DNA of 64,000 nt from Candidatus Daviesbacteria bacterium RIFCSPHIGHO2_02_FULL_43_12 (GCA_001776775.1 MFDD01000014.1:126053-190052); one strand, 5' to 3'. Shown: positions 3,589 to 28,438, numbered from the stretch's first letter. Notes: a model not told the origin generated them from the sequence alone. A program made the numbers and translations.

Positions 3589-6036
3589 TTATCTTTTGGT
3601 GGATTTTTCTGGAGTGGAATCTTGTTTAGCTGAACTTTCATCTTTTTCAAAGCTTTCTCGGACATTATTGATTGCCTCTTGAATAAATTCATCAGTAAAG
3701 ACTCTATCGGTAAAGATACCTTTATAGACTTGGTCCCCTTTACTGCAGTATTTATCGGAAATCTCGCCCGTTAAATTAGTATGCATAATTTTGCGAATGA
3801 ACTCTAACCGTTCTCGACCATCCATCTTTTTTTGCTGAGAAGCAATTCCGAGTGCAAAACATAATTTTTGATATGCACTCTCTTTAATCATATCCCCTAG
3901 AGCTATTCCTCCAGCTTTGATAAACTCTCCCCTCCTTTTATCTAAGGCGATCTCTGCTACTCCATTGTCGGTGGTAGCGATAATACAGATCGGTTTATGG
4001 TAGGAGTTGACTGCTGTGGCGATATAATATTTCATCTGCATCGGCATATTCGCCTCGTCGTAACCTCCAACTAAGATAGCGGAGATATCATCTGACTCGA
4101 CATAACTTTCAAATTGCTTAATATCCACGGCACTAATACATTCAAAATAAGCCACTTTTTGGTTGAAACCAGTAAACAAATTAAAGGGTCTCTTTTTAAC
4201 TCCATCCAAAATATCAATAATCTCCACATGATGGCTCAGGGTTCCCGCCAAGGGATGTTTTTCAATCGGAGCAAAGGCATTAATACCGTGTTCATCTTCT
4301 TTGACTACCGTCGTTCCGATCATCAGCTTATCCCCAAAAGCCACTTTGACCCCAGCCTTAGCACGGCTTTCTTTGGGCTGCTCTAATCTGGCAAAGATCG
4401 CTTTAATCGATTTAACAAAATTGCGATCAAAGTCGGAAGATCCAAATCCGGGTTTTTGAGCTCCAGTTAAAATGACATCTTTATCAATACCCACCAACAT
4501 GTAGGAGATCGCAGCGGCAGTATAGGCTAGAGTGTCAGTACCATGCAAAACAACTACTCCATCATATTTATCGATGTTTTTAGCTATCACTCTTGCTAGC
4601 TGAGCTCTATAGCGATGCTCCATATTCGAGCTATCAATATTAACTAGCTCTAGATAATCTAGGGAGGTTAGCCGATCAATTCCCTTAAGTTTGACGTCAA
4701 ACAGCTCTTGGAGAGTTTTCTTGGTAGGAGCGAGCACGCCTTCAAGGTTAGGTTCTTGGAAAAAAGTTCCCCCAAGCGAGATCGTTAAAATCTTATATTT
4801 ACTAGTCTTAGATTTACAATAAGTTTTTATATCATTACTAAACGCCTGGTCTTCTTGGGGTTTAAAGAAGCTATCTAAAGTCGGGGCCGTTTTAATAAAT
4901 TGATCCCTGGTGTTATTGACCATATGCCGAGAAAAGGTATCGGGGATCTCTTCAGCCACTGCTGTCAGTAAAAGACGGCTGGCGTCTTGGAGTTTTCTAA
5001 ACTTATCCTCCCCTTGAGCATTGCTTAGGGCATATCTCATTTTTTCGATAGCGGCTGGTTTAACCATTGGCCCCAAAGAGATTGCTCCAGCTTTAACAGC
5101 CACCGCCCCCACATCATAAAGCCCCATGTCCGAGGAACCCTTTTTACAATTAGTGATTACTCCGATTAGTTTGGCTTTTTCATAAACTGCTCTATAGATT
5201 AAAGGAATTAACTTAGCTGGACAGTTTCCAGCCCCAAAAGCTCCGATAATAATCCCTTGGATTGTGTCGTCCGTAACCAGCTGTTCAAAGCTGCCTAAAT
5301 GAGTTTCCGAGACCAGGTCAAAATAGGCGACATTTACGTTGGTGTTATAGGAGTAGTTGACCTGAGACGGTTTACGAGGTACTGCATGAGAGCTAATCTT
5401 GACGGTCCATCCAACATCCCCAATTTTTGGAACTCGAGGAGAGAGGATTGGATTATTGGAACGAGTTCCCCGGTTAGTTGCTACCGTCGCTCGAGTTAAA
5501 GAGTCATCGAAAAGGATCGCTACTTCTCCAACTGATGGAGCGTTGACATCTTTAGCGCCCATTAAAGAAACTTTGATGGCGTTAGGTAAGTTGAGCCGAA
5601 AGTCTGAGTCTGGATCCCGGGCACTTTGGGTTGCTCCGGTAAAAATAACCGGTGCCCCTAAACCTCGTAGAGCAAAGGCCGTCGCGCAAGTGTAATAGGC
5701 TGCCACATCCATCCCTCCGATAACTACAAAACCATCATAGTCATTTTGGTAATCTTTAATGGTTTTAGCGATATCGGCAATTTCAAAAGAGGTGAGATCT
5801 GCACTATCTTTTTGACTAAGAGCCAAACAGTCAATCCGACCCGCTTCGTCTTTGAGATACGGAACCAAATCTAAGGACTCTCGGAGATTAAAGTTAAGAT
5901 CTTCGGTCGGACGTTCTATCCCCAAGCCTCCCAGAGAAAGAACCAATACCTTGCCGTCTTTATGCGGATTCTCCGAATAAGTAAAAATTTTATTAGTCAT
6001 AACTGGGTTGTGAGTACTAAAATTAAAAAGTCCCAT
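3589..6036 (-). CDS. 815-aa protein with two tandem asparaginase/GatD-like domains (probably non-canonical)
   Basis: The C-terminal half carries VVLHGTDTLAYTAAAISYML (the asparaginase HGTDTM-type motif), VILTGAQKP (TGAMRP-like) and ILVGGYDEANMP (GxGxGN-P-like). The N-terminal half shows the same order in degenerate form (LSLGGLGI; VVIGGMDVAAYYTCATAF; VIFTGATQSARDPDSD; IIIGAFGAGNCP). The nucleophilic Thr of TGGTIAG is not conserved in either copy. Confidence 0.5.
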   Translation of the reverse strand: MGLFNFSTHNPVMTNKIFTYSENPHKDGKVLVLSLGGLGIERPTEDLNFNLRESLDLVPYLKDEAGRIDCLALSQKDSADLTSFEIADIAKTIKDYQNDYDGFVVIGGMDVAAYYTCATAFALRGLGAPVIFTGATQSARDPDSDFRLNLPNAIKVSLMGAKDVNAPSVGEVAILFDDSLTRATVATNRGTRSNNPILSPRVPKIGDVGWTVKISSHAVPRKPSQVNYSYNTNVNVAYFDLVSETHLGSFEQLVTDDTIQGIIIGAFGAGNCPAKLIPLIYRAVYEKAKLIGVITNCKKGSSDMGLYDVGAVAVKAGAISLGPMVKPAAIEKMRYALSNAQGEDKFRKLQDASRLLLTAVAEEIPDTFSRHMVNNTRDQFIKTAPTLDSFFKPQEDQAFSNDIKTYCKSKTSKYKILTISLGGTFFQEPNLEGVLAPTKKTLQELFDVKLKGIDRLTSLDYLELVNIDSSNMEHRYRAQLARVIAKNIDKYDGVVVLHGTDTLAYTAAAISYMLVGIDKDVILTGAQKPGFGSSDFDRNFVKSIKAIFARLEQPKESRAKAGVKVAFGDKLMIGTTVVKEDEHGINAFAPIEKHPLAGTLSHHVEIIDILDGVKKRPFNLFTGFNQKVAYFECISAVDIKQFESYVESDDISAILVGGYDEANMPMQMKYYIATAVNSYHKPICIIATTDNGVAEIALDKRRGEFIKAGGIALGDMIKESAYQKLCFALGIASQQKKMDGRERLEFIRKIMHTNLTGEISDKYCSKGDQVYKGIFTDRVFTDEFIQEAINNVRESFEKDESSAKQDSTPEKSTKR

Positions 6037-6086
6037 TAATTCTAGGTTATCCTAAAATACTGGAAATTTCTAGTTGTACTCTCCTT

Positions 6087-7661
6087 TCATTTATAAGACT
6101 CATCTAAGCCTAGATTTTCTTCTATAACTCGGTCAATTAAAGCTTCCCCAGGGGAGAAGAGGATTAACCTTCTTCTTTGGGACAGAGTTGTTTCGAAATA
6201 AGGTTCGGTAAATTTTTTAGCGATAAACTCTGGATCAGCTGAGGCTACTGGAGCCCAGAGAGACGGGGCTTTCGATCGATTCTTTTTCCACTCCTCAACC
6301 ATCTTAGCAAGTTCAGTTGCACCATTGACAACCACAACCGTAGGTTTTCTTAAAGCCTCTCTACCCTCTTCGGGCTCCCCCCAAACTAGATCGTCAAATT
6401 TATCTCGTAAATGGCGTCTTAATATCACCTCAACGAGCTGAAAGTAGCGAGCAATGTCTGGAAGGGTAGTTTTAGCGTCCTTAATTAGACCTTCCATGGT
6501 TTTTTGTGTTTCATTAGAAACAGGAACGGCTCTGTCTAAGATTCTCCCAGCAAAAGCCGATGTTTTAGGATCGTAATTGGAAGAAAGACCAAGCAAAACG
6601 ACCTGTGCAACCTTTATGTCGTAATCGGTTAGTCCTTTTAGAAACTTTTCTGTCGTCTCTCTTCTTCCTCTATAGTGAATGCCCTCAACCCCTCTTAAGG
6701 TGTCGCCTAATACTCCATCTCCAGCTGTAGAAGAGACAACCCAGGTTTCATTAGACCCTGCATGCTGGGCCGCCTTTTTAGCTATCTGCTGCTGCAGTAG
6801 TAAACCATATTCTCCAGTATCAATGGTTCTTGCCATAAATGGAATTGACTCTGAAATAACTGCTAAATCTGATCTATCTCCATAATATTCACCCACCTCT
6901 ATTAGCCTCTCCCGAGATCTATCTTTTAGTTTTAAGGCTAGTTCGTCTGGATCTTTGGCATTGTCTCCTCCTAAAATTCTAATCGCTGAACGCCGGTAAA
7001 TCCTTCTTTTCTCTGAACCAGGTTGACTGATTAGAAATGTAGGTGGTTGATCGACTCCGTAATAGCTTCTTAAATAGCTTCTGATATCAAACTCCACATA
7101 CATCCGCGGATCTCCTGAGCTGGTTAAGACAAAGTCGTCTCGAGGATAATCTGCACCTTGCACTAAGTCCATATCAAAAATATGATGGGGTTCAACTCTT
7201 ATAGAGGATCCTGCGGCGGTTACTTTCTCTACTTCAGCAATGAATGGATTAATAGTACCGTATTGAAGACTGAACTCTTCTAGGTTAGCTAAAGCTAAAC
7301 CTTCTGGGTCTATCCCAAGCTCCAGGGCAAGCTTTTTAACGTCTACTTTACGATCTTGTCTTAAGTGAGCAATGACCAGCTCCTCTTGTGGGGTTGTATA
7401 GGCAATAGATTTGATAGGACGCCAGGGTTCCACTCCCTCTTGTCTTAAGTAAACTGCCCGTTTTTGATTATCTTTACCGGAACTTGATTCACCTTGATAC
7501 TGACCAAAAAAATAATGGATCCGGTGTTGAAGTCTTAAAGCGAAAAAAGCTGCAGACACTTTGTGGAATTTGTCTACTATTTTATTATCGGGTGTTAAAC
7601 CGATTTTCTCCGGTCGAAAATTTCCGGTTGGTAAATATTGCTCAGTGATTTCCCTTTGCAT
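6087..7661 (-). CDS. 524-aa protein with an N-terminal YbaK/ProX-like aminoacyl-tRNA deacylase domain and a large unknown C-terminal region
   Basis: ELVIAHLRQDRKVDVKKLALELG...LQYGTINPFIA resembles the YbaK/ProRS-editing fold (LAVAV...LDLKKVAKALG...GGISPLG). The remainder has no family I can name. Confidence 0.4.
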   Translation of the reverse strand: MQREITEQYLPTGNFRPEKIGLTPDNKIVDKFHKVSAAFFALRLQHRIHYFFGQYQGESSSGKDNQKRAVYLRQEGVEPWRPIKSIAYTTPQEELVIAHLRQDRKVDVKKLALELGIDPEGLALANLEEFSLQYGTINPFIAEVEKVTAAGSSIRVEPHHIFDMDLVQGADYPRDDFVLTSSGDPRMYVEFDIRSYLRSYYGVDQPPTFLISQPGSEKRRIYRRSAIRILGGDNAKDPDELALKLKDRSRERLIEVGEYYGDRSDLAVISESIPFMARTIDTGEYGLLLQQQIAKKAAQHAGSNETWVVSSTAGDGVLGDTLRGVEGIHYRGRRETTEKFLKGLTDYDIKVAQVVLLGLSSNYDPKTSAFAGRILDRAVPVSNETQKTMEGLIKDAKTTLPDIARYFQLVEVILRRHLRDKFDDLVWGEPEEGREALRKPTVVVVNGATELAKMVEEWKKNRSKAPSLWAPVASADPEFIAKKFTEPYFETTLSQRRRLILFSPGEALIDRVIEENLGLDESYK

Positions 7662-7711
7662 AAAATTAAAAACAAGTCCTGACGACTTGTGGCAGAAATC
7701 TTATAGTTTTC

Positions 7712-7740
7712 TTGACTTAATGTAAAATTTATTGTATTAT
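7712..7740 (+). promoter_or_regulatory. Sigma-70-like promoter (TTGACT -17 bp- TATTAT) in an AT-rich divergent intergenic region
   Basis: TTGACT at 7712-7717 and TATTAT at 7735-7740, with a 17-bp spacer, about 100 bp upstream of the + strand gene at 7839. The region 7662-7838 is very AT-rich and lies between divergent genes. Confidence 0.35.
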
Positions 7741-7838
7741 CTTGCAGATTGTAATATTTACTTACGTTTATCCAAGTTAGCAATAGTTATATTTGGATTT
7801 AATGTAATAATATGCAACTAGATATATAAATCTAACAA

Positions 7839-8495
7839 ATGATTAAAGCGGCTGATGCGGTATTACAACTCCTTAAAAACGACGAGATCGCCCTGGAATC
7901 TTTTCGGGAAAGTATTCTTAACTTAAGTGCTTATGCAACTAAGATTCAGAAAAGTGTTGAGAAATTAACTTATAAACCGGTTAAAAAGGGAACTATTGTG
8001 GTAGCCTTATCCCGGCTTTCCAAATCAGACTTAAAGGCTTCCCAAAAACCCGAGATAAAAATTAATCATTTAAGCACCCGCTCGCCGGTCATCTCTTATA
8101 CTTACCAAAAAACTTTCGACACTCAAAGACGGGTTTCTACGCTTAACCCTTATCTCGTGACTCCAACGGACTTATTTGGAATTATCGAAGGAGAAAGTGA
8201 GATCATCATCATTGTGTCCGAGAAAGCGGTCGATTTAGTTAAAGACCATATCGGAGTTATCCCAAAAAGAGAAGTTGCCAATCTGGTTGGGCTAACAGTC
8301 CAGTTCTCCGATAAAATACCCAGCCAAAAGGTTTTACAATCGCTTTTAAGCTTACTCTCAACACATCAGGTTAATATTGAAAATATTCTACCAGGAATGA
8401 ACGAGATCTCCTTTATCATTGCTCAAAACAGCCTGGAGCAGGCAATCTCAGCTCTAAATTTATATACTATTAAAAAGGAGTCAGCTGGTGGTTAA
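7839..8495 (+). CDS. ACT-domain-like protein (resembles aspartokinase regulatory domains)
   Basis: ANLVGLTVQFSDKIP...VNIENILPGMNEISFIIAQN...AISAL follows the aspartokinase C-terminal ACT pattern (ISVVG.GM...INI.MIS.SE..ISFVV). It has no kinase domain. Confidence 0.35.
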   Translation: MIKAADAVLQLLKNDEIALESFRESILNLSAYATKIQKSVEKLTYKPVKKGTIVVALSRLSKSDLKASQKPEIKINHLSTRSPVISYTYQKTFDTQRRVSTLNPYLVTPTDLFGIIEGESEIIIIVSEKAVDLVKDHIGVIPKREVANLVGLTVQFSDKIPSQKVLQSLLSLLSTHQVNIENILPGMNEISFIIAQNSLEQAISALNLYTIKKESAGG

Positions 8496-8967
8496 TCCTA
8501 AGACGCCTGATTCAATATTAGTGATATTAACCGGAGGACGGATTGATTCTGTTTGGGACGGCGGGATTGATGAAATTGTGGTGGCCAAACATTCAGTGAT
8601 CCCGGAGTATTTTAAGGAACTAAAGACTGAGGGATTAGAGTTTAAAGAAGTTTGTATGAAAGATTCTAGAGCCCTAGTGCTGGAAGATCGTATAGCTATT
8701 TTGCAGGCAATTGAACAAAGTCATACTAATAAGATCCTGATTACTCATGGAACTCATACGCTACCAGACACTATTGAGTTTCTAAACAAACATCTCAAAG
8801 ATAAGTCAAAGACTATTGTCTTTACCGGATCATCAACACCATTAAAAGACTTTAAATCCTCTGATGCAGCTTTGAATCTAGGATATGCCCTAGCTAAAGT
8901 TGAAGATTTACCGGCTGGACTGTACTTTTGTGCAAATAACCAGACTACTCCTGCTGAAAGAATCTGA
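8488..8967 (+). CDS. Stand-alone asparaginase/GatD N-terminal-domain-like protein (159 aa), GTG start
   Basis: ILVILTGGRIDSV (TGGTIAG-like), ILITHGTHTLPDTIEFL (HGTDTM-like) and IVFTGSSTPL (TGAMRP-like). A GGAG RBS lies 8 nt upstream of the GTG. It overlaps the upstream gene by 8 bp. Confidence 0.45.
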   Translation: MVNPKTPDSILVILTGGRIDSVWDGGIDEIVVAKHSVIPEYFKELKTEGLEFKEVCMKDSRALVLEDRIAILQAIEQSHTNKILITHGTHTLPDTIEFLNKHLKDKSKTIVFTGSSTPLKDFKSSDAALNLGYALAKVEDLPAGLYFCANNQTTPAERI

Positions 8968-9003
8968 TTGCTAGATTAAATCTTTTGTCCTATAATCCTG
9001 AAC

Positions 9004-9483
9004 ATGGCGTATTCCGGAGAAAGCTTGGTTAAAACTTCAAAACAAGTTGTCGCTCAATTAAGATCTTTAGGGATATCCACACCGAGCTTGGAAGAACCAG
9101 TCGGACAGTTCCTCTGCTCTATTGCCGCTGATGCTGCCAACTCAACCCTGGCATTTTACTTTAGAGTCAACCAAGATGGTACAAGACCTAACTTTTTAGT
9201 AGCAATATCCGACCCACCTGTTGATATATCTAACTGGAGTCAGTGGATTAATAAGTATCGTAGGGACAGATCCCAGCTTCTACTCGCATCTCATGCCCAG
9301 CTGAGATATAGCTTGCAACCTCACCTACTCTGTAGCTTGGACACTCCTCGTGGAGGAGAGCTTGATAGTATCAGACAGGCTATGCAAAGAATACAACCTG
9401 GAGGAATCTATCGAGCTTGGCCATATACTAGATACGAGCTCCTTGCTTTCCTAGACCTTCACCCTTCTCAAAAGATTCACTGA
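9004..9483 (+). CDS. Hypothetical protein
   Basis: 159-aa ORF co-directional with and immediately downstream of the asparaginase-like gene. No recognisable motif. Confidence 0.3.
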   Translation: MAYSGESLVKTSKQVVAQLRSLGISTPSLEEPVGQFLCSIAADAANSTLAFYFRVNQDGTRPNFLVAISDPPVDISNWSQWINKYRRDRSQLLLASHAQLRYSLQPHLLCSLDTPRGGELDSIRQAMQRIQPGGIYRAWPYTRYELLAFLDLHPSQKIH

Positions 9484-18964: not shown

Positions 18965-20839
18965 ATGATACCATACATCCATTCCATGCCCCCGACTGAT
19001 TTCCTAAATGATCTAAATCCTATCCAACAACAAGCCTGTCAGGCGACCGATGGACCATCCTTAATTTTGGCCGGAGCTGGCTCAGGTAAAACTCGGGTTT
19101 TAACTTACCGAGTAGCTTATTTAATGTCTCAAAAAAATATTTTGCCCGAGAATATCTTGGTAGTAACCTTTACCAATAAGGCCGCTCAGGAGATGAAAGA
19201 TCGGATTAAGCTATTAATTGGGCGAGCGGAGCAGCCGATCATGGGTACCTTTCACTCGATTTGCGCCCGGTTACTCCGCAAGGAAGGGTATCAGGTTGGA
19301 CTTAAACCTGGGTTTTCTATCTATGACGAAAACGACGCCCTCGATGCGATCAAGGAAGCCATGGCCACTTTGGCGATTGATGTTAAGAAAACTTCACCCT
19401 CTTCTATTCGCTACACTATCTCTGGAGCTAAAAACGAAAATATTGCAGATACTGAATACCCTCAATTCGCCAGAGGGTATTTTCAGGAAACTGTGGCCAA
19501 AGTTTACTTGGAATATCAGAAGATTCTGCGGCGTAATCAGGCCTTAGATTTTGATGACCTGATTATGTACACCATCCGGCTTTTTCAATCTGTACCAGAG
19601 GTTTTGCATAAATACCAAACTCAGTTTAGATATATCTTGGTTGACGAATACCAGGATACTAACGCTACTCAGTACCTATTAATAAAACTGCTCGCCGCGC
19701 GCAATCGGAATGTTTGTGTCATCGGCGATGCAGCACAGAGTATTTATTCATTTAGAGGCGCTGACTTTCGAAATATCATCAACTTTCAGAAAGATTATAA
19801 AGAGGCTAAAGTCTTTAATCTAGAACAAAACTACCGCTCGACTCAAATCATCTTAGACGCTGCTCATGCTGTAGTTAGCACCAACAAGTCCCACCCAATC
19901 TTAAATCTCTGGACCAATAAAAAAGAAGGTGCAAAAATTACTGTCTATCAAGCACGGTCAGAAGTTGATGAAGCTAATTTCGTCATCGATGAAACAAAAA
20001 AATCCAAACTTCCCTATGCTCATTTTGCCATTCTTTATCGAACTAATGCTCAGTCCCGTTCATTGGAGGAGGCTTTCTTAAAAAACGCTATCCCCTACAC
20101 TTTGGTTGGAGGACTGAAGTTTTATGAACGCAAAGAGATTAAGGATGTGCTGTCGTATCTTCGACTAATTGCTAATCCAGAGGACAGCATTGCTCGTAAG
20201 AGGATCGAGAAAATTGGCTTAAAAAGAGCCTTGAAATTTGATCAGCTACTCACCGAGATCCTATCTACTATCACTCAGTTTTCCACCTTAGAGTTAATGG
20301 AGCTTCTGTTGCAAGCCACCGATTACTTAGCCACTATTGACGATGGCACCGAGCAGGGTATGGCCCGAGCAGAGAATGTTAAGGAGCTAAAGTCGGTGGC
20401 GGAAGAATTTCCAGACCTGTTGGCCTTTTTGGAAAATGTAGCTTTGGTTCAAGACAATACTATGCCCGACGGTAAACTCAGTGAAGACAAAAAAAATGCT
20501 GTAACGCTGATGACTATTCATGCTTCCAAGGGCTTGGAGTTTCCAGTAATATTTTTGGTAGGGATGGAGGAAGGACTGTTTCCTCATTCTCGGTCGATGC
20601 TTGACCCAGAAGCAATGGAGGAAGAACGGCGCTTGGCGTATGTGGGTATTACCAGAGCCAAAGAACGGCTGTATTTCATCTATACCCGCTCAAGGTTGTA
20701 TTTTGGAACCCGTTCCAATAACCTGGTCTCTCGTTTCCTAGCCTCTATCCCAGAATCTTTACTGGACGGAAGCAAAGGTTATAGTGATGCTGTTGACGAT
20801 GACATCTATCCTACGCAAGAAGATGAGTGGCTAAATTAG
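18965..20839 (+). CDS. pcrA: ATP-dependent DNA helicase PcrA/UvrD family
   Basis: LNPIQQQA...LILAGAGSGKTRVLTYRVAYL (motifs Q, I, Ia), VDEYQDTN (motif II), GDAAQSIYSFRGA (III), TIHASKGLEFPVIFL (VI-like). Confidence 0.85.
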   Translation: MIPYIHSMPPTDFLNDLNPIQQQACQATDGPSLILAGAGSGKTRVLTYRVAYLMSQKNILPENILVVTFTNKAAQEMKDRIKLLIGRAEQPIMGTFHSICARLLRKEGYQVGLKPGFSIYDENDALDAIKEAMATLAIDVKKTSPSSIRYTISGAKNENIADTEYPQFARGYFQETVAKVYLEYQKILRRNQALDFDDLIMYTIRLFQSVPEVLHKYQTQFRYILVDEYQDTNATQYLLIKLLAARNRNVCVIGDAAQSIYSFRGADFRNIINFQKDYKEAKVFNLEQNYRSTQIILDAAHAVVSTNKSHPILNLWTNKKEGAKITVYQARSEVDEANFVIDETKKSKLPYAHFAILYRTNAQSRSLEEAFLKNAIPYTLVGGLKFYERKEIKDVLSYLRLIANPEDSIARKRIEKIGLKRALKFDQLLTEILSTITQFSTLELMELLLQATDYLATIDDGTEQGMARAENVKELKSVAEEFPDLLAFLENVALVQDNTMPDGKLSEDKKNAVTLMTIHASKGLEFPVIFLVGMEEGLFPHSRSMLDPEAMEEERRLAYVGITRAKERLYFIYTRSRLYFGTRSNNLVSRFLASIPESLLDGSKGYSDAVDDDIYPTQEDEWLN

Positions 20840-24294: not shown

Positions 24295-27200
24295 TCAGAT
24301 CATCAATCCTCGTAGCTCACAATATTCGCAGGTCGGTTCTTGACACCGACGATCCCAGAAATCGAGATTAATAATTTCTTTAGCTACTTGCAAAATCATG
24401 GTTTCTAAAGTTGCGACCTGCTCGGAGGTTATCTCAAAACTTTCACTACGAATTTTACCCTTGACATCCGACTCGACAAAATCTATTACCCCTTCTTTCA
24501 TCTCCATTTTCCCTTGATAGTATTTATCAATTAGTAATTTATAAAAAACCAGCTGTCTTAAATAGTCTCCATTACTATCTCCAGTTTTTCCCTCTATCTC
24601 TCCTCTTGACCGAGGCTTACCTGTTTTAAAATCAAAGACTCTGACATGTCCTTTGGAATCTATTTTTTCAATCATATCGACAACTCCATTAATTATGACG
24701 TCGTCAGTTAGTCTAACTCCTTTAATTACCACTTCACTTTGCACTCCTTTATTCCAACGGGTAATTCTTTGGTCAAAGTAATTTTGTAATACTTTTTGAC
24801 CCTTCTTAAGCAGATCTTCAAAATCTTTTTCAGCTAGAGGCTCCCTTGCTAGGGCGTCGATAAATCCTTGAATGAGCAAGGTGTTGGAAGCGTCACCCTG
24901 GTTGAGATGATTAATATAGTTTTGCAGGGCTTTATGAATGGCTGTACCGAACATTCTGCTACGATCTTTAATCTCTGGTAAGAGCAGCAGGTTTCGATAA
25001 AAAAATCTCCATGGGCATTTTAAATAATTATTTAATCCACTAACTGACAAGCCTCTTTCCAGAAAAATCTCCTTAAAGAACTCCATATCCTTGACTCTTG
25101 ACTCTTGACTCTTGACTCTTGGTCTGAAAATTTGCTCTTTCCGAGAAGAAAAATCTTCTTGAAACGAAGTTGTATCCTCTATTCTCTTATACTTATCCTC
25201 TATTTCTCCTATAAACTGTGCGGGTAGCTGCTCTTTTCCCTCTAGGGATTTCGAGGAATAGGAGATAGTTACTCCCTTTTTGGCTCGAGTTAAGGCCACA
25301 TAAAACAACCGTCTCTCATCTTCATTTTGTTCAATGTCTATTCCTAATTTAAGCTTGACTCCAAAATATTCCCAGGGAATAGCAATACCCGAAGACCTTC
25401 TTCTCATGTTTCCCCAGTGACCATTAAAGCAATTAATAATATATACATATTCAAACTCCAAGCCTTTGGATTTATGAGCAGTCATCAGTCTGACGTAATC
25501 TTGTCGAGGGGTTTGGGTGGGACATTTAATTAAGATATCGTGTTCTTTGAGCAAATTTAAGTAAGCCAAAAAGTCTGTTAAATTAAACTGAGGATTTCTC
25601 ATCACTTGTAACTTAATCTCTTCAAAAAGAATAGTTAGCTTTTCGATAATCTCTATGGAACTAGGTTGAGTTAAAATGTAATCAAGAAGTTTTGAATCAT
25701 TGAGCACCGATACAAATAGAGTTTCGAGGTTATCGTTTTTACTTTGAATCTGCCAATTTTCCAGCAACTTATAAAACGTGGTTATTCCTTCTTTTTCTAT
25801 CCCAACCAAATTCAAAATCTCGGATTTAGTAACTATTTCAAAAACAGATAGCTTACTCGCTCTGGCATACTTCATTAATTTATACAGATCTAGGGGTTTA
25901 ATTCCTAAAAAATCAAGATGCAGCGCTGGTATAAGATAGGCATCTTCGCCGTAAAAAGCCACTGCTTCAAGAAGCATTAAAAACTTTCTAACAGATGCGT
26001 CAGCAAAAATATTTTGGTCGGCTTCAACACTATACTTGACTCCTGCCTGCTCTAAGACACTGGCTAAAATAATTAAATCCCGGTTATTTCGGGCTAGTAC
26101 TGCGATCTCTTTTGGAGCAATTCCAGCAGTTATTTTTTCTCCAATATCTTTGGCATAAAAGTAATACTCGCTGTAATAGTCGGTAAACTCTATAAGTCTG
26201 ATTGGCTCTTCCGGGTACTTGCTACTTGACTGCAAGGCAACTCTTTCCGGCATTAAATCTGAGATAATATTTATTTTTATAACCGATCCCGCAGCATCCA
26301 GAATAGTCTGAGTAGAACGATAATTAAAGTTTAGATTAATTAAGATTGCTTTAGGATAGAGCTTTTTGAAATATAAAAAATTCTCTAGGGATGCTCCTTG
26401 AAATCTGTAGATCGCTTGTTTTTCATCTCCCACTACAAAGAGATTAGGATTTTCATAAAAGTTGCACAGTAGCTCAACCAATTTATTTTGAGCAGTGTTG
26501 GTATCTTGATGTTCGTCGACTAAAATATATTGATATCTCTCCTGCAGACGAAGCAGCAATTCTTTGTTAGTAGATAGAGCTTTAACTACTTCCAGTAACA
26601 TATCATTAAAGTCGTAGAGTTTTTTTGTTTGCAGTGCTTGTTGATATGCTGTATATATAATAAGTAGCTCTTTTTGTTTATTTATATCTCGCAAAGTCTC
26701 TGAGTACTTGCCTTTCATCTGCCCTTTGTAGGCCCCCTTTTCGTGATACAGATCTTTGATAATTGCGAAATCTTTTTCTTGAGCGATAATCCCCTCAGCA
26801 AAATCCGTCACCGAGACTCCTTCTTTTTTTAAATCATTAATCGCCGATAAACTATATTTTAGATAATAGAGAGGATCTCCGAAGGGTTTAAGTAGCTCTA
26901 GCGAAGATTGATTGATGATCTCTTCTAGTAGTTGGATCTGTTCGATCTCCGTCATACTAGTAGCGGAAATCAGGTGCGGGAAATCTTCAGGATTATGTTT
27001 GATTACCTCACTTCCAAAAGAATGAAAGGTGGTAATCTCCACTTTGTAGGCCAAAGTACCAATAATTTCGGCTAAACGCTTGCGCATGGCTAGCACCGCT
27101 GAATCAGTAAAGGTTAGAGCTAAAATATTATCTGGATTAACCTGAGTTTGCAGTAATATATTGGCAATCCGCAGCGTCAGGATCTGAGTTTTGCCAGTCC

Positions 27201-27321
27201 CCGGACCAGCTATCACCATTACTGGACCTTCGATAGAGTCAACTGCCTGTTTCTGTTGTGGGTTCAAGTTCCTGTAAGCTTTTCTGAATTCAAAGGTTTC
27301 CATCTGTTTGGGGGTCTTCAA
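24295..27321 (-). CDS. UvrD-like helicase fused to a C-terminal PD-(D/E)XK (Cas4/AddB-like, FeS) nuclease domain
   Basis: N-terminal VMVIAGPGTGKTQILTLRIANIL and VDEHQDTN are helicase motifs. The C-terminal GVVDMIEKID...VFDFKTGK and YLRQLVFYKLL (QxxxY) are nuclease motifs. Cys ligands CPWRF...CQEPTCEYC fit a 4Fe-4S cluster. Confidence 0.65.
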   Translation of the reverse strand: MKTPKQMETFEFRKAYRNLNPQQKQAVDSIEGPVMVIAGPGTGKTQILTLRIANILLQTQVNPDNILALTFTDSAVLAMRKRLAEIIGTLAYKVEITTFHSFGSEVIKHNPEDFPHLISATSMTEIEQIQLLEEIINQSSLELLKPFGDPLYYLKYSLSAINDLKKEGVSVTDFAEGIIAQEKDFAIIKDLYHEKGAYKGQMKGKYSETLRDINKQKELLIIYTAYQQALQTKKLYDFNDMLLEVVKALSTNKELLLRLQERYQYILVDEHQDTNTAQNKLVELLCNFYENPNLFVVGDEKQAIYRFQGASLENFLYFKKLYPKAILINLNFNYRSTQTILDAAGSVIKINIISDLMPERVALQSSSKYPEEPIRLIEFTDYYSEYYFYAKDIGEKITAGIAPKEIAVLARNNRDLIILASVLEQAGVKYSVEADQNIFADASVRKFLMLLEAVAFYGEDAYLIPALHLDFLGIKPLDLYKLMKYARASKLSVFEIVTKSEILNLVGIEKEGITTFYKLLENWQIQSKNDNLETLFVSVLNDSKLLDYILTQPSSIEIIEKLTILFEEIKLQVMRNPQFNLTDFLAYLNLLKEHDILIKCPTQTPRQDYVRLMTAHKSKGLEFEYVYIINCFNGHWGNMRRRSSGIAIPWEYFGVKLKLGIDIEQNEDERRLFYVALTRAKKGVTISYSSKSLEGKEQLPAQFIGEIEDKYKRIEDTTSFQEDFSSRKEQIFRPRVKSQESRVKDMEFFKEIFLERGLSVSGLNNYLKCPWRFFYRNLLLLPEIKDRSRMFGTAIHKALQNYINHLNQGDASNTLLIQGFIDALAREPLAEKDFEDLLKKGQKVLQNYFDQRITRWNKGVQSEVVIKGVRLTDDVIINGVVDMIEKIDSKGHVRVFDFKTGKPRSRGEIEGKTGDSNGDYLRQLVFYKLLIDKYYQGKMEMKEGVIDFVESDVKGKIRSESFEITSEQVATLETMILQVAKEIINLDFWDRRCQEPTCEYCELRGLMI

Positions 27322-28438
27322 TCACTAATTCAATTTCTTCAAACTCTAAACTTTTTATATCTGCCATTGGTTCATCAATAAGTCCTGACAAAGATCCGTG
27401 CATTGAAAGAGTATTATTTTTTAACCTTTCAATTTCTTTGTCTCTTTGGGCCCAAATTTTCTGCATGACCATTTTTTCTTTATCTAAGGTCTGCTGCATT
27501 TTAGAATAGGTTTCCAGCATTGAGTCTATTCTTTGAGCAAATTCAGAACTGGTTATATATCTATAAAGAGATTCTATTTTTTCATTTTTTCCTACAGACA
27601 GAGCTTTTGTTTGTGCTATATCCAGTAAACTTTTGCGTAAGATGAACGCAACCTGTAGCACACAATCGAAACTTGTTATATACACGCCATCTTTTTGAGT
27701 AAAGAACTTAGCACCAGAGGGCAAAATTGTTGAGACAATTACCGATACATCTGCTTTTGCCTCTCTCATATCTTCTTTTAATTTAACAATCCATTCCTCC
27801 GTAAATGCCTTTGTCCTTTTGCTCTCCCAGATAATCTTGCCCGCATCTCTTCCGATCTGATCTTTTACAAGTTGCACTAAATCCGCGCCTCTTACACCTT
27901 TCCCAACTTCGCTTAATTCATCAATAGGGAATTCGCGTTTTAATATTTCCATAAGCTCCAGCTCCATTACCTCACCTTGAAGCTGTTGAGAACCAACTGA
28001 GGCTTTTCTTTGAGCCTCATCCAAGGATTTTTTTAGAGATTCTATCAGCTGATCTTTTTCTTTCTCCTTTAAATGAAACTTTTCAGTGACCTCCGTTTCT
28101 GTTTTCTCCTGGATTTTTTTTCTTTCTTCATCGATTTGCCTTTGCATTTCCAGCTCCAAATTTTTTTCTTTTTCTTCTAATTCCTGAGCTTTCTTTCTTA
28201 AAATTAACTCGTTTTCTCTAAACGTCTCAATCTCTTTCTTGTTTTTTGATAATTGCTCCTGAAGTTCTAATTTTTCTTTTTGGGATTGCTCCGATAGTTG
28301 TAGTTTTAGAGATATGTATTTTTGATTATATTCATCCCGCAGGTCTCCTTTGACCGATTCCTCAATCTGATGACGTAGCACCTCGTCAACTGAGATTTGA
28401 GTATGGCACTTTGGGCACTGAATAGATGAAACGCTCAT
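27290..28438 (-). CDS. Zn-ribbon / long coiled-coil / C-terminal PD-(D/E)XK-like (DUF2130-like) protein
   Basis: N-terminal CPKCHTQ zinc ribbon. About 130 aa of E/K/Q-rich coiled coil. The C-terminal GADLVQLV...GKIIWESKRTK shows a D...ExK motif. It overlaps the helicase-nuclease gene by 32 bp. Confidence 0.45.
   Translation of the reverse strand: MSVSSIQCPKCHTQISVDEVLRHQIEESVKGDLRDEYNQKYISLKLQLSEQSQKEKLELQEQLSKNKKEIETFRENELILRKKAQELEEKEKNLELEMQRQIDEERKKIQEKTETEVTEKFHLKEKEKDQLIESLKKSLDEAQRKASVGSQQLQGEVMELELMEILKREFPIDELSEVGKGVRGADLVQLVKDQIGRDAGKIIWESKRTKAFTEEWIVKLKEDMREAKADVSVIVSTILPSGAKFFTQKDGVYITSFDCVLQVAFILRKSLLDIAQTKALSVGKNEKIESLYRYITSSEFAQRIDSMLETYSKMQQTLDKEKMVMQKIWAQRDKEIERLKNNTLSMHGSLSGLIDEPMADIKSLEFEEIELVIEDPQTDGNL

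What the first reader, a model, noticed from the sequence alone, without database searches (positions are those of the whole stretch)
24295..28438. Overlapping pair: UvrD-helicase/Cas4-like FeS nuclease fusion plus Zn-ribbon/coiled-coil/PD-(D/E)XK protein
The 1008-aa protein joins a superfamily-1 helicase to a RecB/Cas4-type nuclease with four Cys ligands. The upstream gene (382 aa) overlaps it by 32 bp and has a Zn ribbon, a ~130-residue coiled coil and a C-terminal D…ExK restriction-endonuclease-like motif. This could be an AddAB-type end-resection machine in minimal form, or a two-gene defence/anti-MGE module. The coiled-coil nuclease partner is not a standard AddB.
Basis: partly seen in the sequence, partly recalled or inferred. 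Interest (0 to 1): 0.55.

Follow-up and report, generated by a model that had tools for sequence, protein, structure and literature searches.

The report
Helicase-nuclease beside DUF2130 nuclease gene
Two real, neighbouring DNA-enzyme genes in a Daviesbacteria (CPR) genome, an AddA/RecB-like helicase-nuclease and a DUF2130 coiled-coil nuclease, are adjacent only in this lineage, so they look like ordinary housekeeping neighbours rather than a new two-gene machine.

Summary
Both ORFs exist, and the domain reading is right. The 1002-aa protein (start ATG 27303, not TTG 27321) is an SF1A UvrD/PcrA-type helicase fused to a PDDEXK_1 nuclease with four invariant Cys. The 382-aa protein is a standard DUF2130 (PF09903): a CPxC knuckle, a helix of about 130 residues and a PD-(D/E)XK core with D186...E205-x-K207.

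The window comes from a Candidatus Daviesbacteria genome, and the surrounding genes are housekeeping (MetRS, NUDIX, TatD, FemAB, PcrA).

The proposed two-gene module is not co-conserved:
- Of 80 DUF2130 loci from many phyla, only 7 have the helicase-nuclease next door. All 7 are Daviesbacteria-like.
- Of 80 loci with full-length helicase-nuclease orthologues, none has DUF2130.
- Within the Daviesbacteria block the pair is interrupted by other genes, pulled 5-7 kb apart, or the helicase is replaced.
- DUF2130 stays linked to the upstream neighbours about as often as to the helicase.

Best reading: two independent DNA-metabolism genes, co-transcribed here through lineage-specific synteny. A Daviesbacteria-specific partnership remains possible (about 0.2). 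Both genes are new members of known families, and interest is low to moderate. As a side observation, DUF2130 elsewhere often sits in defence islands.

The parts
24295..27303 (-). Helicase-nuclease gene (1002 aa plus stop). The start is revised from TTG 27321 to ATG 27303.
   Evidence: ORF list. Pfam UvrD-helicase, UvrD_C and PDDEXK_1. Homologue N-termini and the 1002-aa gene calls. AF2 pLDDT 85, with Foldseek best full-length match AddA 4cej_A at E 1.6e-34.
25252..27267 (-). SF1A UvrD/PcrA-like motor (about residues 13-684 of the 1002-aa protein), with Walker A GPGTGKT and DEHQD.
   Evidence: Pfam. PDB phmmer hit to PcrA 1pjr at 1.5e-67. Invariant columns G33-T39 and D263-D267.
24310..25050 (-). 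C-terminal PDDEXK_1 (RecB/AddB/Cas4-type) nuclease domain. It has D876, D891-x-K893, Q917...Y921 and four invariant Cys (C763; C987-x4-C992-x2-C995), a putative Fe-S site.
   Evidence: Pfam PF12705 at 3.1e-27. Invariant columns in 58 homologues. NCBIfam cas4 scores 34.8 bits, below the 65-bit cut-off.
27290..28438 (-). DUF2130 gene (382 aa plus stop).
   Evidence: ORF list. PF09903 at 1.6e-58, 198 bits against a 26.7-bit cut-off. A 100%-identical database protein from Candidatus Daviesbacteria.
28406..28417 (-). CPKC knuckle (C8, C11). These are the only conserved Cys of DUF2130.
   Evidence: Alignments. CxxC is present in 73 of 77 homologues across phyla with no second Cys pair. AF2 places a beta-hairpin at residues 5-16.
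27998..28390 (-). Single long alpha-helix (residues 17-147), a presumed coiled-coil arm.
   Evidence: AF2 secondary structure, with pLDDT up to 92. Its length varies between homologues.
27674..27988 (-). PD-(D/E)XK core of DUF2130 (residues 151-255) with E156/E159, D186 and E205-x-K207.
   Evidence: AF2 alpha-beta-beta-beta-alpha-beta topology. Foldseek top hits are all restriction-endonuclease-fold proteins: BstEII, Bax1, DdmD, SPARDA, McrC and MspJI, with E about 7e-3 and probability 0.95-1.0. Invariant residues. Listed as PD-(D/E)XK group 109 in PMC3424549.
27290..27303 (-). 14-nt overlap between the DUF2130 stop (TGA 27292-27290) and the helicase ATG (27303-27301).
   Evidence: Sequence. 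No terminator-like site lies between the genes. Spacing of 31 nt or less in the 7 syntenic loci.

Best explanation
These are two separate, chromosomal DNA-metabolism genes of a Candidatus Daviesbacteria (CPR) genome. They sit in one short operon because of lineage-specific gene order, not because they form an obligate two-part system.

Gene 1 is a single-chain member of the AddA/RecB/AdnAB helicase-nuclease class. A UvrD/PcrA-like SF1A motor (inferred 3'->5' translocation on ssDNA) unwinds DNA ends and feeds a strand to its own C-terminal nuclease. That nuclease is of the RecB/AddB/Cas4 type and is braced by a Cys4 (inferred Fe-S) cluster. It most likely carries out end resection or recombinational repair in CPR bacteria (inferred).

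Gene 2 is an ordinary member of the large DUF2130 family. It has a CPxC metal knuckle, an arm formed by a helix of about 130 residues, a catalytically intact PD-(D/E)XK domain and two long C-terminal helices. It is most likely an oligomeric, metal-dependent DNA endonuclease. Its biological role is unknown and it works independently of the helicase in most bacteria.

Shown here: the domains, the conserved catalytic residues, the predicted folds and the distribution of gene neighbourhoods. Inferred: the activities, polarity, Fe-S binding, co-transcription and cellular roles.
For: Domains and active-site conservation. Folds.

The helicase-nuclease is a widespread stand-alone housekeeping gene.
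- 80 metagenomic loci carry full-length orthologues (32-50% identity). None has DUF2130 within 4 kb, and 61 of them have at least 1.2 kb of upstream sequence.
- The recurrent neighbours there look like rpoD, dnaG, recR, a DsbA-like gene and HisRS. This is judged from the representative sequences of the blastp clusters, not from a family search.
- The Roizmanbacteria locus L084 has the helicase beside ribosomal-protein genes and no DUF2130.

DUF2130 is a widespread stand-alone gene.
- It has 4444 representatives at E<=1e-10 and 586 genomic relatives across many phyla.
- No neighbour is conserved across 77 loci. The helicase is at position +1 in only 7.

Within the Daviesbacteria block the link is loose.
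- An extra 139-aa gene lies between the two in L168.
- An opposite-strand gene lies between them in L169.
- Unrelated genes spanning 5-7 kb separate them in L005 and L085.
- The helicase is replaced by a secreted protein in L003 and L007.

The upstream 124-aa/MetRS neighbours of DUF2130 are kept in 7 loci, the same number as the helicase.

The window context is housekeeping. No AddB-like or second PDDEXK_1 gene exists in the 64 kb.
Against: In eight Daviesbacteria-like sequences (the window plus 7 loci) the two genes are directly adjacent on the same strand, overlapping or 31 nt or less apart. This holds down to about 41-42% DUF2130 identity and about 50% helicase identity.

Many DUF2130 and helicase database hits share contig lengths, including contigs of only 5-7 kb. 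This persistence is compatible with selection for co-expression.

Both proteins act on DNA. Classical end-resection machines use two nuclease sites, so a partnership is mechanistically plausible.

Phyletic co-occurrence in whole genomes could not be tested, and no interaction prediction was possible.
Confidence: 0.65

Rival explanations
1. This is a Daviesbacteria-specific, split two-nuclease end-resection machine. The helicase-nuclease unwinds and cuts one strand. The co-translated DUF2130 dimer docks through its helical arms and cuts the other strand, playing the role of the second nuclease of AddAB or AdnAB.
For: - Tight same-strand adjacency or overlap in the window and 7 related loci.
- Both nuclease active sites are intact.
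- No AddB-like partner exists in the window.
- In another lineage (L167) a different stand-alone PD-(D/E)XK gene (276 aa, PDDEXK_1) sits immediately upstream of the orthologous helicase-nuclease. This hints that a second nuclease is sometimes recruited.
Against: - The helicase-nuclease occurs without DUF2130 nearby in all 80 non-Daviesbacteria loci.
- DUF2130 occurs without it in about 70 loci of other phyla, including other CPR groups.
- Within the lineage, adjacency is broken by insertions, an opposite-strand gene or replacement.
- The L167-type upstream nuclease is a one-off among the loci examined.
- Flanking unrelated genes are equally syntenic.
Confidence: 0.2
2. This is a two-gene anti-phage or anti-MGE defence module, Gabija-like in logic, made of a UvrD-type helicase and a nuclease effector.
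For: - The helicase scores strongly against PADLOC GajB models (1.4e-80).
- DUF2130 homologues in other phyla lie beside Ppl, PDC-S06, OLD-family ATPases, type I R-M, GmrSD, a type III Res subunit and Cas12a.
Against: - The GajB hits reflect generic UvrD homology. The protein scores higher against the PcrA, Rep and UvrD models.
- No GajA/OLD-type partner is present, and DUF2130 matches no PADLOC model.
- The neighbourhood is conserved housekeeping synteny: MetRS, NUDIX, TatD, FemAB and PcrA.
- Helicase orthologues elsewhere sit beside genes that look like dnaG, rpoD and recR.
- No mobile-element genes, tRNAs or known RNAs lie nearby.
- The lower GC (0.37-0.40) covers the whole 24-34 kb stretch, including MetRS.
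Confidence: 0.07

Closest known systems
AddA of AddAB (Bacillus subtilis, PDB 3u44/4cej chain A), and more broadly RecB and AdnA/AdnB
   Same: The order of parts is the same: an N-terminal UvrD-like SF1A motor followed by a C-terminal RecB-family PD-(D/E)XK nuclease in one chain. AddA is the best full-length structural match (Foldseek E 1.6e-34, about 1200 aligned columns). AdnA and AddB give TM about 0.55-0.57.
   Different: - At about 1000 aa it is shorter than AddA or RecB (about 1200 aa).
- Sequence scores against the addA, recB and RecB-like equivalog models are far below their cut-offs (147 vs 708 bits; 154 vs 696 bits).
- The helicase part is closest to PcrA/UvrD.
- The nuclease carries the four-Cys signature. 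From my own knowledge, this is typical of AddB, Cas4 and Dna2 rather than AddA.
- No AddB/RecC-like partner gene lies next to it here or in 80 orthologous loci.
DUF2130 / COG4487 (Pfam PF09903, PD-(D/E)XK clan; group 109 in Steczkiewicz et al. 2012, PMC3424549)
   Same: The 382-aa protein is a full member: 198 bits against a cut-off of 26.7. It has the family's invariant D...ExK, long helix and CPxC N-terminus.
   Different: Nothing distinguishes it from the family except its Daviesbacteria-specific position upstream of the helicase-nuclease. The family itself has no known function.
RmuC (E. coli YigN). From memory, it is a coiled-coil protein with a C-terminal PD-(D/E)XK domain.
   Same: The general architecture is similar: a long helical region followed by a restriction-endonuclease-like domain. 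This is a resemblance recalled from memory only.
   Different: There is no detectable homology. hhalign of the DUF2130 profile against E. coli RmuC gives probability 0.06%, and there is no Pfam RmuC hit at E<=10. DUF2130 has an N-terminal CPxC knuckle.
Gabija (GajA + GajB)
   Same: It pairs a UvrD-type helicase with a nuclease gene. The helicase matches GajB HMMs.
   Different: There is no OLD-family ATPase/TOPRIM GajA. The helicase has its own fused nuclease and is a housekeeping-context gene.

Membership tests
DUF2130 (PF09903) | Score above the Pfam gathering threshold over the full domain | tested here: met
   198.4 bits against a cut-off of 26.7, covering profile positions 3-250 of 255
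PD-(D/E)XK superfamily (for the 382-aa protein) | Alpha-beta-beta-beta-alpha-beta core with a conserved acidic residue on beta2 and (D/E)xK on beta3 | tested here: met
   AF2 topology H151-169, E174-177, E187-192, E198-207, H215-227, E231-236. D186 and E205-x-K207 are invariant in 57 sequences. Foldseek top hits are restriction-endonuclease-fold proteins, but with weak E of about 7e-3. Listed in PMC3424549.
Four-ligand zinc ribbon (for the N-terminus of the 382-aa protein) | Two CxxC/H pairs on two beta-hairpins | tested here: not met
   Only one CPxC is conserved (73 of 77 homologues) and there is no second Cys pair. pLDDT is only 49-59 at residues 1-20.
AddAB | AddA equivalog-level similarity | tested here: not met
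   addA_Gpos scores 146.9 bits against a cut-off of 707.65. addA_alphas scores 147.1 against 860.75.
AddAB | Adjacent AddB subunit, a helicase-like scaffold of about 1100 aa with an Fe-S PD-(D/E)XK nuclease | tested here: not met
   The upstream gene is a 382-aa DUF2130 with no helicase-like domain. There is no other PDDEXK_1 or AddB-like sequence in the 64-kb window, and none beside 80 orthologues.
AddA/RecB/AdnAB helicase-nuclease class (architecture) | SF1A UvrD-like motor followed by a RecB-family nuclease in one chain, with ATPase and nuclease motifs intact | tested here: met
   Pfam architecture, invariant Walker A/B and D...DxK...QxxxY, and full-length structural matches to AddA, AddB, AdnA/B and RecB.
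RecBCD | RecB equivalog similarity, with RecC and RecD partners | tested here: not met
   recB TIGR00609 scores 153.6 bits against a cut-off of 696. No RecC- or RecD-like ORF is adjacent.
Cas4 | Cas4 equivalog score and a CRISPR-cas context | tested here: not met
   TIGR00372 scores 34.8 bits against a cut-off of 65. The neighbouring genes are housekeeping. Presence of a CRISPR array in the window was not checked.
Fe-S cluster nuclease (AddB/Cas4/Dna2 type) | Four Cys (one upstream and three downstream of the nuclease core) that bind a [4Fe-4S] or [2Fe-2S] cluster | tested here: inconclusive
   The four Cys are invariant (C763; C987-x4-C992-x2-C995). The spacing differs from the CX2CX5C that I recall for AddB and Cas4. 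Metal binding cannot be tested with these tools.
Gabija | GajA (OLD-family ATPase plus TOPRIM) next to GajB | tested here: not met
   DUF2130 matches no PADLOC model. The Pfam scans of the two proteins and of 10 genes around them list no AAA_15 or TOPRIM hit.
Co-conserved two-gene module (DUF2130 + helicase-nuclease) | Adjacency retained across lineages beyond general synteny | tested here: not met
   Adjacency in 7 of 80 DUF2130 loci, all Daviesbacteria-like, and in 0 of 80 helicase loci. It is interrupted or lost in L003, L005, L007, L085, L168 and L169.

The most novel reading that the evidence does not exclude
DUF2130 is a dimeric nuclease 'on a stalk'. Its lone CPxC knuckle at the tip of a helix of about 130 residues would pair with that of a second protomer around one metal ion, in the manner of the Rad50 zinc hook. 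In Daviesbacteria this nuclease would have been recruited as the second nuclease of a single-chain AddA/AdnAB-like helicase-nuclease, giving a split, minimal two-nuclease end-processing machine. In other phyla the same protein would serve as a defence-island effector.
Probability: 0.12. Interest if true: 0.55.

Novelty: new member of a known kind. Interest (0 to 1): 0.25.

Why it matters
If the ordinary reading is right, the finding matters little. It records that Daviesbacteria, like many CPR bacteria, carry a compact single-chain helicase-nuclease, probably their substitute for AddAB/RecBCD. By lineage-specific gene order it is co-transcribed with a DUF2130 nuclease.

Two modest points remain of interest:
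- The helicase-nuclease family of about 1000 aa, which combines a PcrA-like motor with a Cys4 nuclease, is widespread in CPR genomes and has not been studied biochemically. It is a candidate minimal end-resection enzyme.
- DUF2130 is a large family (over 4000 clusters at 50% identity) with an intact nuclease site and no known role. It repeatedly turns up beside known defence genes in other phyla.

Tried and rejected
- **AddB identity of the 382-aa protein.** Rejected: it has no helicase-like scaffold, and it has DUF2130 and PD-(D/E)XK features only.
- **Gabija.** Rejected: the GajB hits are generic UvrD similarity and there is no GajA.
- **RmuC relationship of DUF2130.** hhalign against E. coli RmuC gives probability 0.06%, and there is no Pfam hit at E<=10.
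- **Sequence search of the DUF2130 profile, and of the isolated nuclease domain, against PDB.** No meaningful hits.
- **A general 'second nuclease upstream of the helicase' pattern**, suggested by L167. No other locus among about 160 has a stand-alone PDDEXK_1 neighbour.
- **Association of DUF2130 with AddAB-like genes in Bacteroidota** (L012 and L033). It is seen in only 2 of about 70 loci. By my rough estimate, not a computed test, that is no more than chance would give.
- **RNA genes or terminators separating the pair.** No tRNAs and no Rfam hits were found in the window, and no terminator-like site lies at the gene junction. The one terminator-like site (27998-28019) lies inside the DUF2130 gene.
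- **The L003 tail as rRNA.** No Rfam hit. It encodes the N-terminus of a secreted protein homologous to L007_6.
- **Literature.** DUF2130, COG4487 and PF09903 appear only in catalogues. Nothing useful was found on AddAB in Patescibacteria.
- One family-search call was malformed and returned an error.


Full report
**What is in the sequence**

The minus strand carries two consecutive ORFs: 27290..28438 (382 aa, ATG) and 24295..27321 (1008 aa from the first TTG). The 382-aa protein is 100% identical to a hypothetical protein of Candidatus Daviesbacteria bacterium RIFCSPHIGHO2_01_FULL_44_2x. The window is therefore from a CPR/Patescibacteria genome.

The start of the large gene needs correction. 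Three lines of evidence place it at the ATG at 27303:
- homologue N-termini share the consensus MxTxxFxxxYKxLNP;
- the 100%-identical database protein is 1002 aa;
- gene calls on three independent contigs agree.

The overlap with the upstream stop (TGA 27292-27290) is therefore 14 nt, not 32. No terminator-like site lies at the junction between the two genes. The one site found in the region (27998-28019) lies inside the DUF2130 gene.

**The large protein**

Pfam finds UvrD-helicase (1.6e-65), UvrD_C (7e-37) and PDDEXK_1 (3.1e-27, residues 758-1004). The following are invariant in 58 homologues of 49-66% identity:
- Walker A (GPGTGKT) and DEHQD;
- the nuclease residues D876, D891-x-K893 and Q917...Y921;
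- four Cys: C763, and C987-x4-C992-x2-C995.

Both activities are therefore predicted to be intact.

NCBIfam equivalog models for PcrA, Rep, UvrD, RecB, AddA, the RecB-like helicase and Cas4 all score far below their cut-offs. The protein belongs to none of those named families. By sequence the motor is closest to PcrA/UvrD structures (1pjr, 1.5e-67).

An AlphaFold2 model (pLDDT 85, pTM 0.71) matches AddA over its whole length (4cej_A, E 1.6e-34). It also matches AddB, AdnA/AdnB and RecB with TM about 0.5-0.57. It is a compact single-chain member of the AddA/RecB/AdnAB helicase-nuclease class. It combines an active PcrA-like motor with a four-Cys nuclease. From my own knowledge, that Cys pattern is typical of AddB, Cas4 and Dna2, not of AddA.

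**The small protein**

It is a standard DUF2130 (PF09903, 198 bits against a cut-off of 26.7). This family is already placed in the PD-(D/E)XK superfamily with 'unknown' function (Steczkiewicz et al. 2012, PMC3424549, group 109). It is otherwise absent from the searchable literature.

The AlphaFold2 model (pLDDT 79) gives:
- a beta-hairpin at residues 5-16;
- one continuous helix at 17-147;
- an alpha-beta-beta-beta-alpha-beta core at 151-255;
- two long helices at 257-351.

D186 and E205-x-K207 are invariant.

The best Foldseek hits are all restriction-endonuclease-fold proteins: BstEII, Bax1, the DdmD nuclease domain, the SPARDA nuclease, McrC and MspJI. Probabilities are 0.95-1.0 but E-values are weak, at about 7e-3. 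The nuclease fold is therefore supported.

The 'Zn ribbon' is only half there. A single CPxC is conserved (73 of 77 homologues across phyla) with no second Cys pair. A four-ligand site would need either a partly conserved His or a second protomer, and that is inference only.

No relationship to RmuC, an architectural look-alike, could be detected.

**Is the pair a module?**

*From the DUF2130 side.* A scan of one genome per species found 586 relatives in many phyla. Among the best 80 loci, the helicase-nuclease is the next gene in only 7: L001, L002, L004, L010, L015, L029 and L054. All are Daviesbacteria-like. Five of them (L001, L002, L004, L010, L015) keep at least part of the upstream MetRS/124-aa-protein synteny. 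In L029 and L054 the upstream sequence is missing because DUF2130 lies at the contig end. No neighbour of DUF2130 is conserved across the 77 loci that could be analysed.

*From the helicase side.* 80 metagenomic loci carry full-length orthologues (32-50% identity, aligned over about residues 5-1001). None contains DUF2130, and 61 of them have at least 1.2 kb of upstream sequence. Their recurrent neighbours look like rpoD, dnaG, recR, a DsbA-like gene and HisRS. I named these from the representative sequences of the blastp clusters, not from a family search. A Roizmanbacteria orthologue lies next to the ribosomal-protein cluster, although the Roizmanbacteria loci examined do carry DUF2130 genes (L028, L048, L053, L076, L080).

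*Inside the Daviesbacteria synteny block.* The link is loose:
- a 139-aa gene lies between the two in L168;
- an opposite-strand gene lies between them in L169;
- 5-7 kb of unrelated genes on both strands separate them in L005 and L085;
- a secreted protein takes the helicase's place in L003 (65% DUF2130 identity) and L007.

DUF2130 keeps its upstream neighbours in 7 loci, the same number as keep the helicase.

The adjacency in the window is best explained by inherited gene order.

**Context**

The surrounding genes are:
- MetRS, NUDIX, TatD, a methyltransferase, FemAB and a DOT1-like methyltransferase;
- a LapA-domain protein, a G5/3D cell-wall protein and a 624-aa PcrA-type helicase;
- LepA, MurJ and GroEL.

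There are no tRNAs and no Rfam hits in the window. The somewhat lower GC (0.37-0.40) spans all of 24-34 kb, including MetRS. No AddB-like or second PDDEXK_1 gene is present in the 64 kb. This is not a defence island.

**Mechanism (best-supported reading, confidence about 0.65)**

The two genes are probably co-transcribed here, given the 14-nt overlap and the absence of a terminator at the junction. This is inferred. They probably act independently.
- The helicase-nuclease is the likely DNA-end-processing or repair enzyme of these reduced genomes. Its SF1A motor would unwind DNA, and its own Cys4-braced nuclease would degrade a strand. This is inferred by analogy with AddA, RecB and AdnAB.
- DUF2130 is a probable oligomeric, metal-dependent endonuclease on a helical stalk, of unknown biological role.

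**Rivals**

A Daviesbacteria-specific partnership in which DUF2130 supplies a second nuclease remains possible (about 0.2). The arguments for it are the tight adjacency, which persists to about 41-42% DUF2130 identity, and the L167 lineage, where a different stand-alone PDDEXK_1 gene sits upstream of the orthologous helicase. That arrangement is a one-off among the loci examined.

A defence module is unlikely (about 0.07). The strong PADLOC GajB hits are generic UvrD similarity. There is no GajA, and DUF2130 matches no PADLOC model.

**Novelty and verdict**

Both proteins are new members of known families. The proposed module is not supported. Interest is low to moderate (0.25).

The most novel reading not excluded is a zinc-hook-like dimeric stalk nuclease, recruited as second nuclease to a minimal resection enzyme. 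I give it about 0.12.

One side observation deserves a separate look. In about 8 of 70 non-Daviesbacteria loci, DUF2130 sits directly among known defence genes: Ppl, PDC-S06, OLD-family ATPases, type I R-M, GmrSD, a type III Res subunit and Cas12a.

Noticed in passing
L025:5989-7233, L032:5989-7242, L039:6001-7590, L044:5296-7374, L051:3766-5013, L045:3730-4992, L014:5983-7209: DUF2130 homologues in other phyla sit inside defence-island-like gene strings. The phyla are Parcubacteria, Oscillospiraceae, Elusimicrobia, Acidobacteriota, Moranbacteria, Nitrospirae and Saccharibacteria.
- L025: a type I R-M methylase/specificity gene, then a Ppl-like PHP-ATPase, then DUF2130, with 4-nt overlaps.
- L032: PDC-S06 (AAA_13) lies upstream and GmrSD downstream.
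- L039: a full-length Ppl (E 2.9e-145) lies two genes upstream, with a Schlafen/AlbA_2 gene between.
- L044 and L051: OLD-family ATPases are adjacent.
- L045: a type III Res subunit lies upstream.
- L014: Cas12a lies immediately downstream.
DUF2130 itself matches no PADLOC model. It may be an unrecognised defence-associated nuclease.
   Followed up: partly
L167:5077-5907 (upstream of the helicase at 6001-9036): In one CPR lineage, whose helicase is 52% identical to the window's, a stand-alone 276-aa PDDEXK_1 (Cas4-like, Cys-containing) gene lies 94 nt upstream of the helicase-nuclease, in the position DUF2130 occupies in Daviesbacteria. No other locus examined shows this.
   Followed up: partly
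window 28406-28417 (DUF2130 residues 8-11), and homologues in L001-L080: The N-terminal metal motif of DUF2130 is a lone CPxC, followed by a conserved I-[SP]-[IL]-x-E-A motif and an often-present His. With only two Cys per chain at the tip of a helix of about 130 residues, an inter-subunit metal site like the Rad50 zinc hook is conceivable. This is speculation.
   Followed up: partly
L086-L165 (neighbours of helicase-nuclease orthologues): In roughly 20 of 76 loci, the CPR/other helicase-nuclease orthologues lie directly downstream of genes whose representative sequences look like dnaG and rpoD (named by eye, not by a family search), resembling a macromolecular-synthesis operon arrangement. 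In 8 loci a recR-like gene follows within 2-3 genes. This supports a housekeeping replication or repair role.
   Followed up: partly
L012:10-4694 and L033:8489-11503: In two Bacteroidota genomes DUF2130 lies within 1-3 genes of UvrD-type helicase genes. In L012 the order is a UvrD_C helicase, a 949-aa PDDEXK_1 (AddB-like) protein, a dGTPase, DUF2130 and HflX. In L033 a 1004-aa homologue of the L012 helicase lies about 1.4 kb downstream of DUF2130. There are too few cases to distinguish this from chance.
   Followed up: partly
window 18965-20839 (+): A second UvrD-family helicase (624 aa, PcrA-like, without a nuclease domain) lies about 3.5 kb from the helicase-nuclease. The same arrangement is kept in relatives (L081, L082, L085).
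   Followed up: no
window 3589-6036 (-): An 815-aa ORF appears to contain two asparaginase/glutaminase units. The Asparaginase and Asparaginase_C domains each match twice, which suggests a tandem duplication or fusion.
   Followed up: no
L007:7242-9728 and L003:7135-8517: In two Daviesbacteria-like genomes the gene after DUF2130 is a large Cys-rich and Pro/Thr-rich secreted protein with no Pfam match (828 aa in L007). It occupies the helicase-nuclease's position.
   Followed up: partly
L029, L054, L007 (record titles): Contigs labelled 'uncultured Gammaproteobacteria' carry the Daviesbacteria-type genes. L029 and L054 have the DUF2130-helicase pair, with a helicase 53-54% identical to the window's. 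L007 has the 124-aa upstream neighbour. They are probably mis-binned or mislabelled CPR contigs.
   Followed up: no
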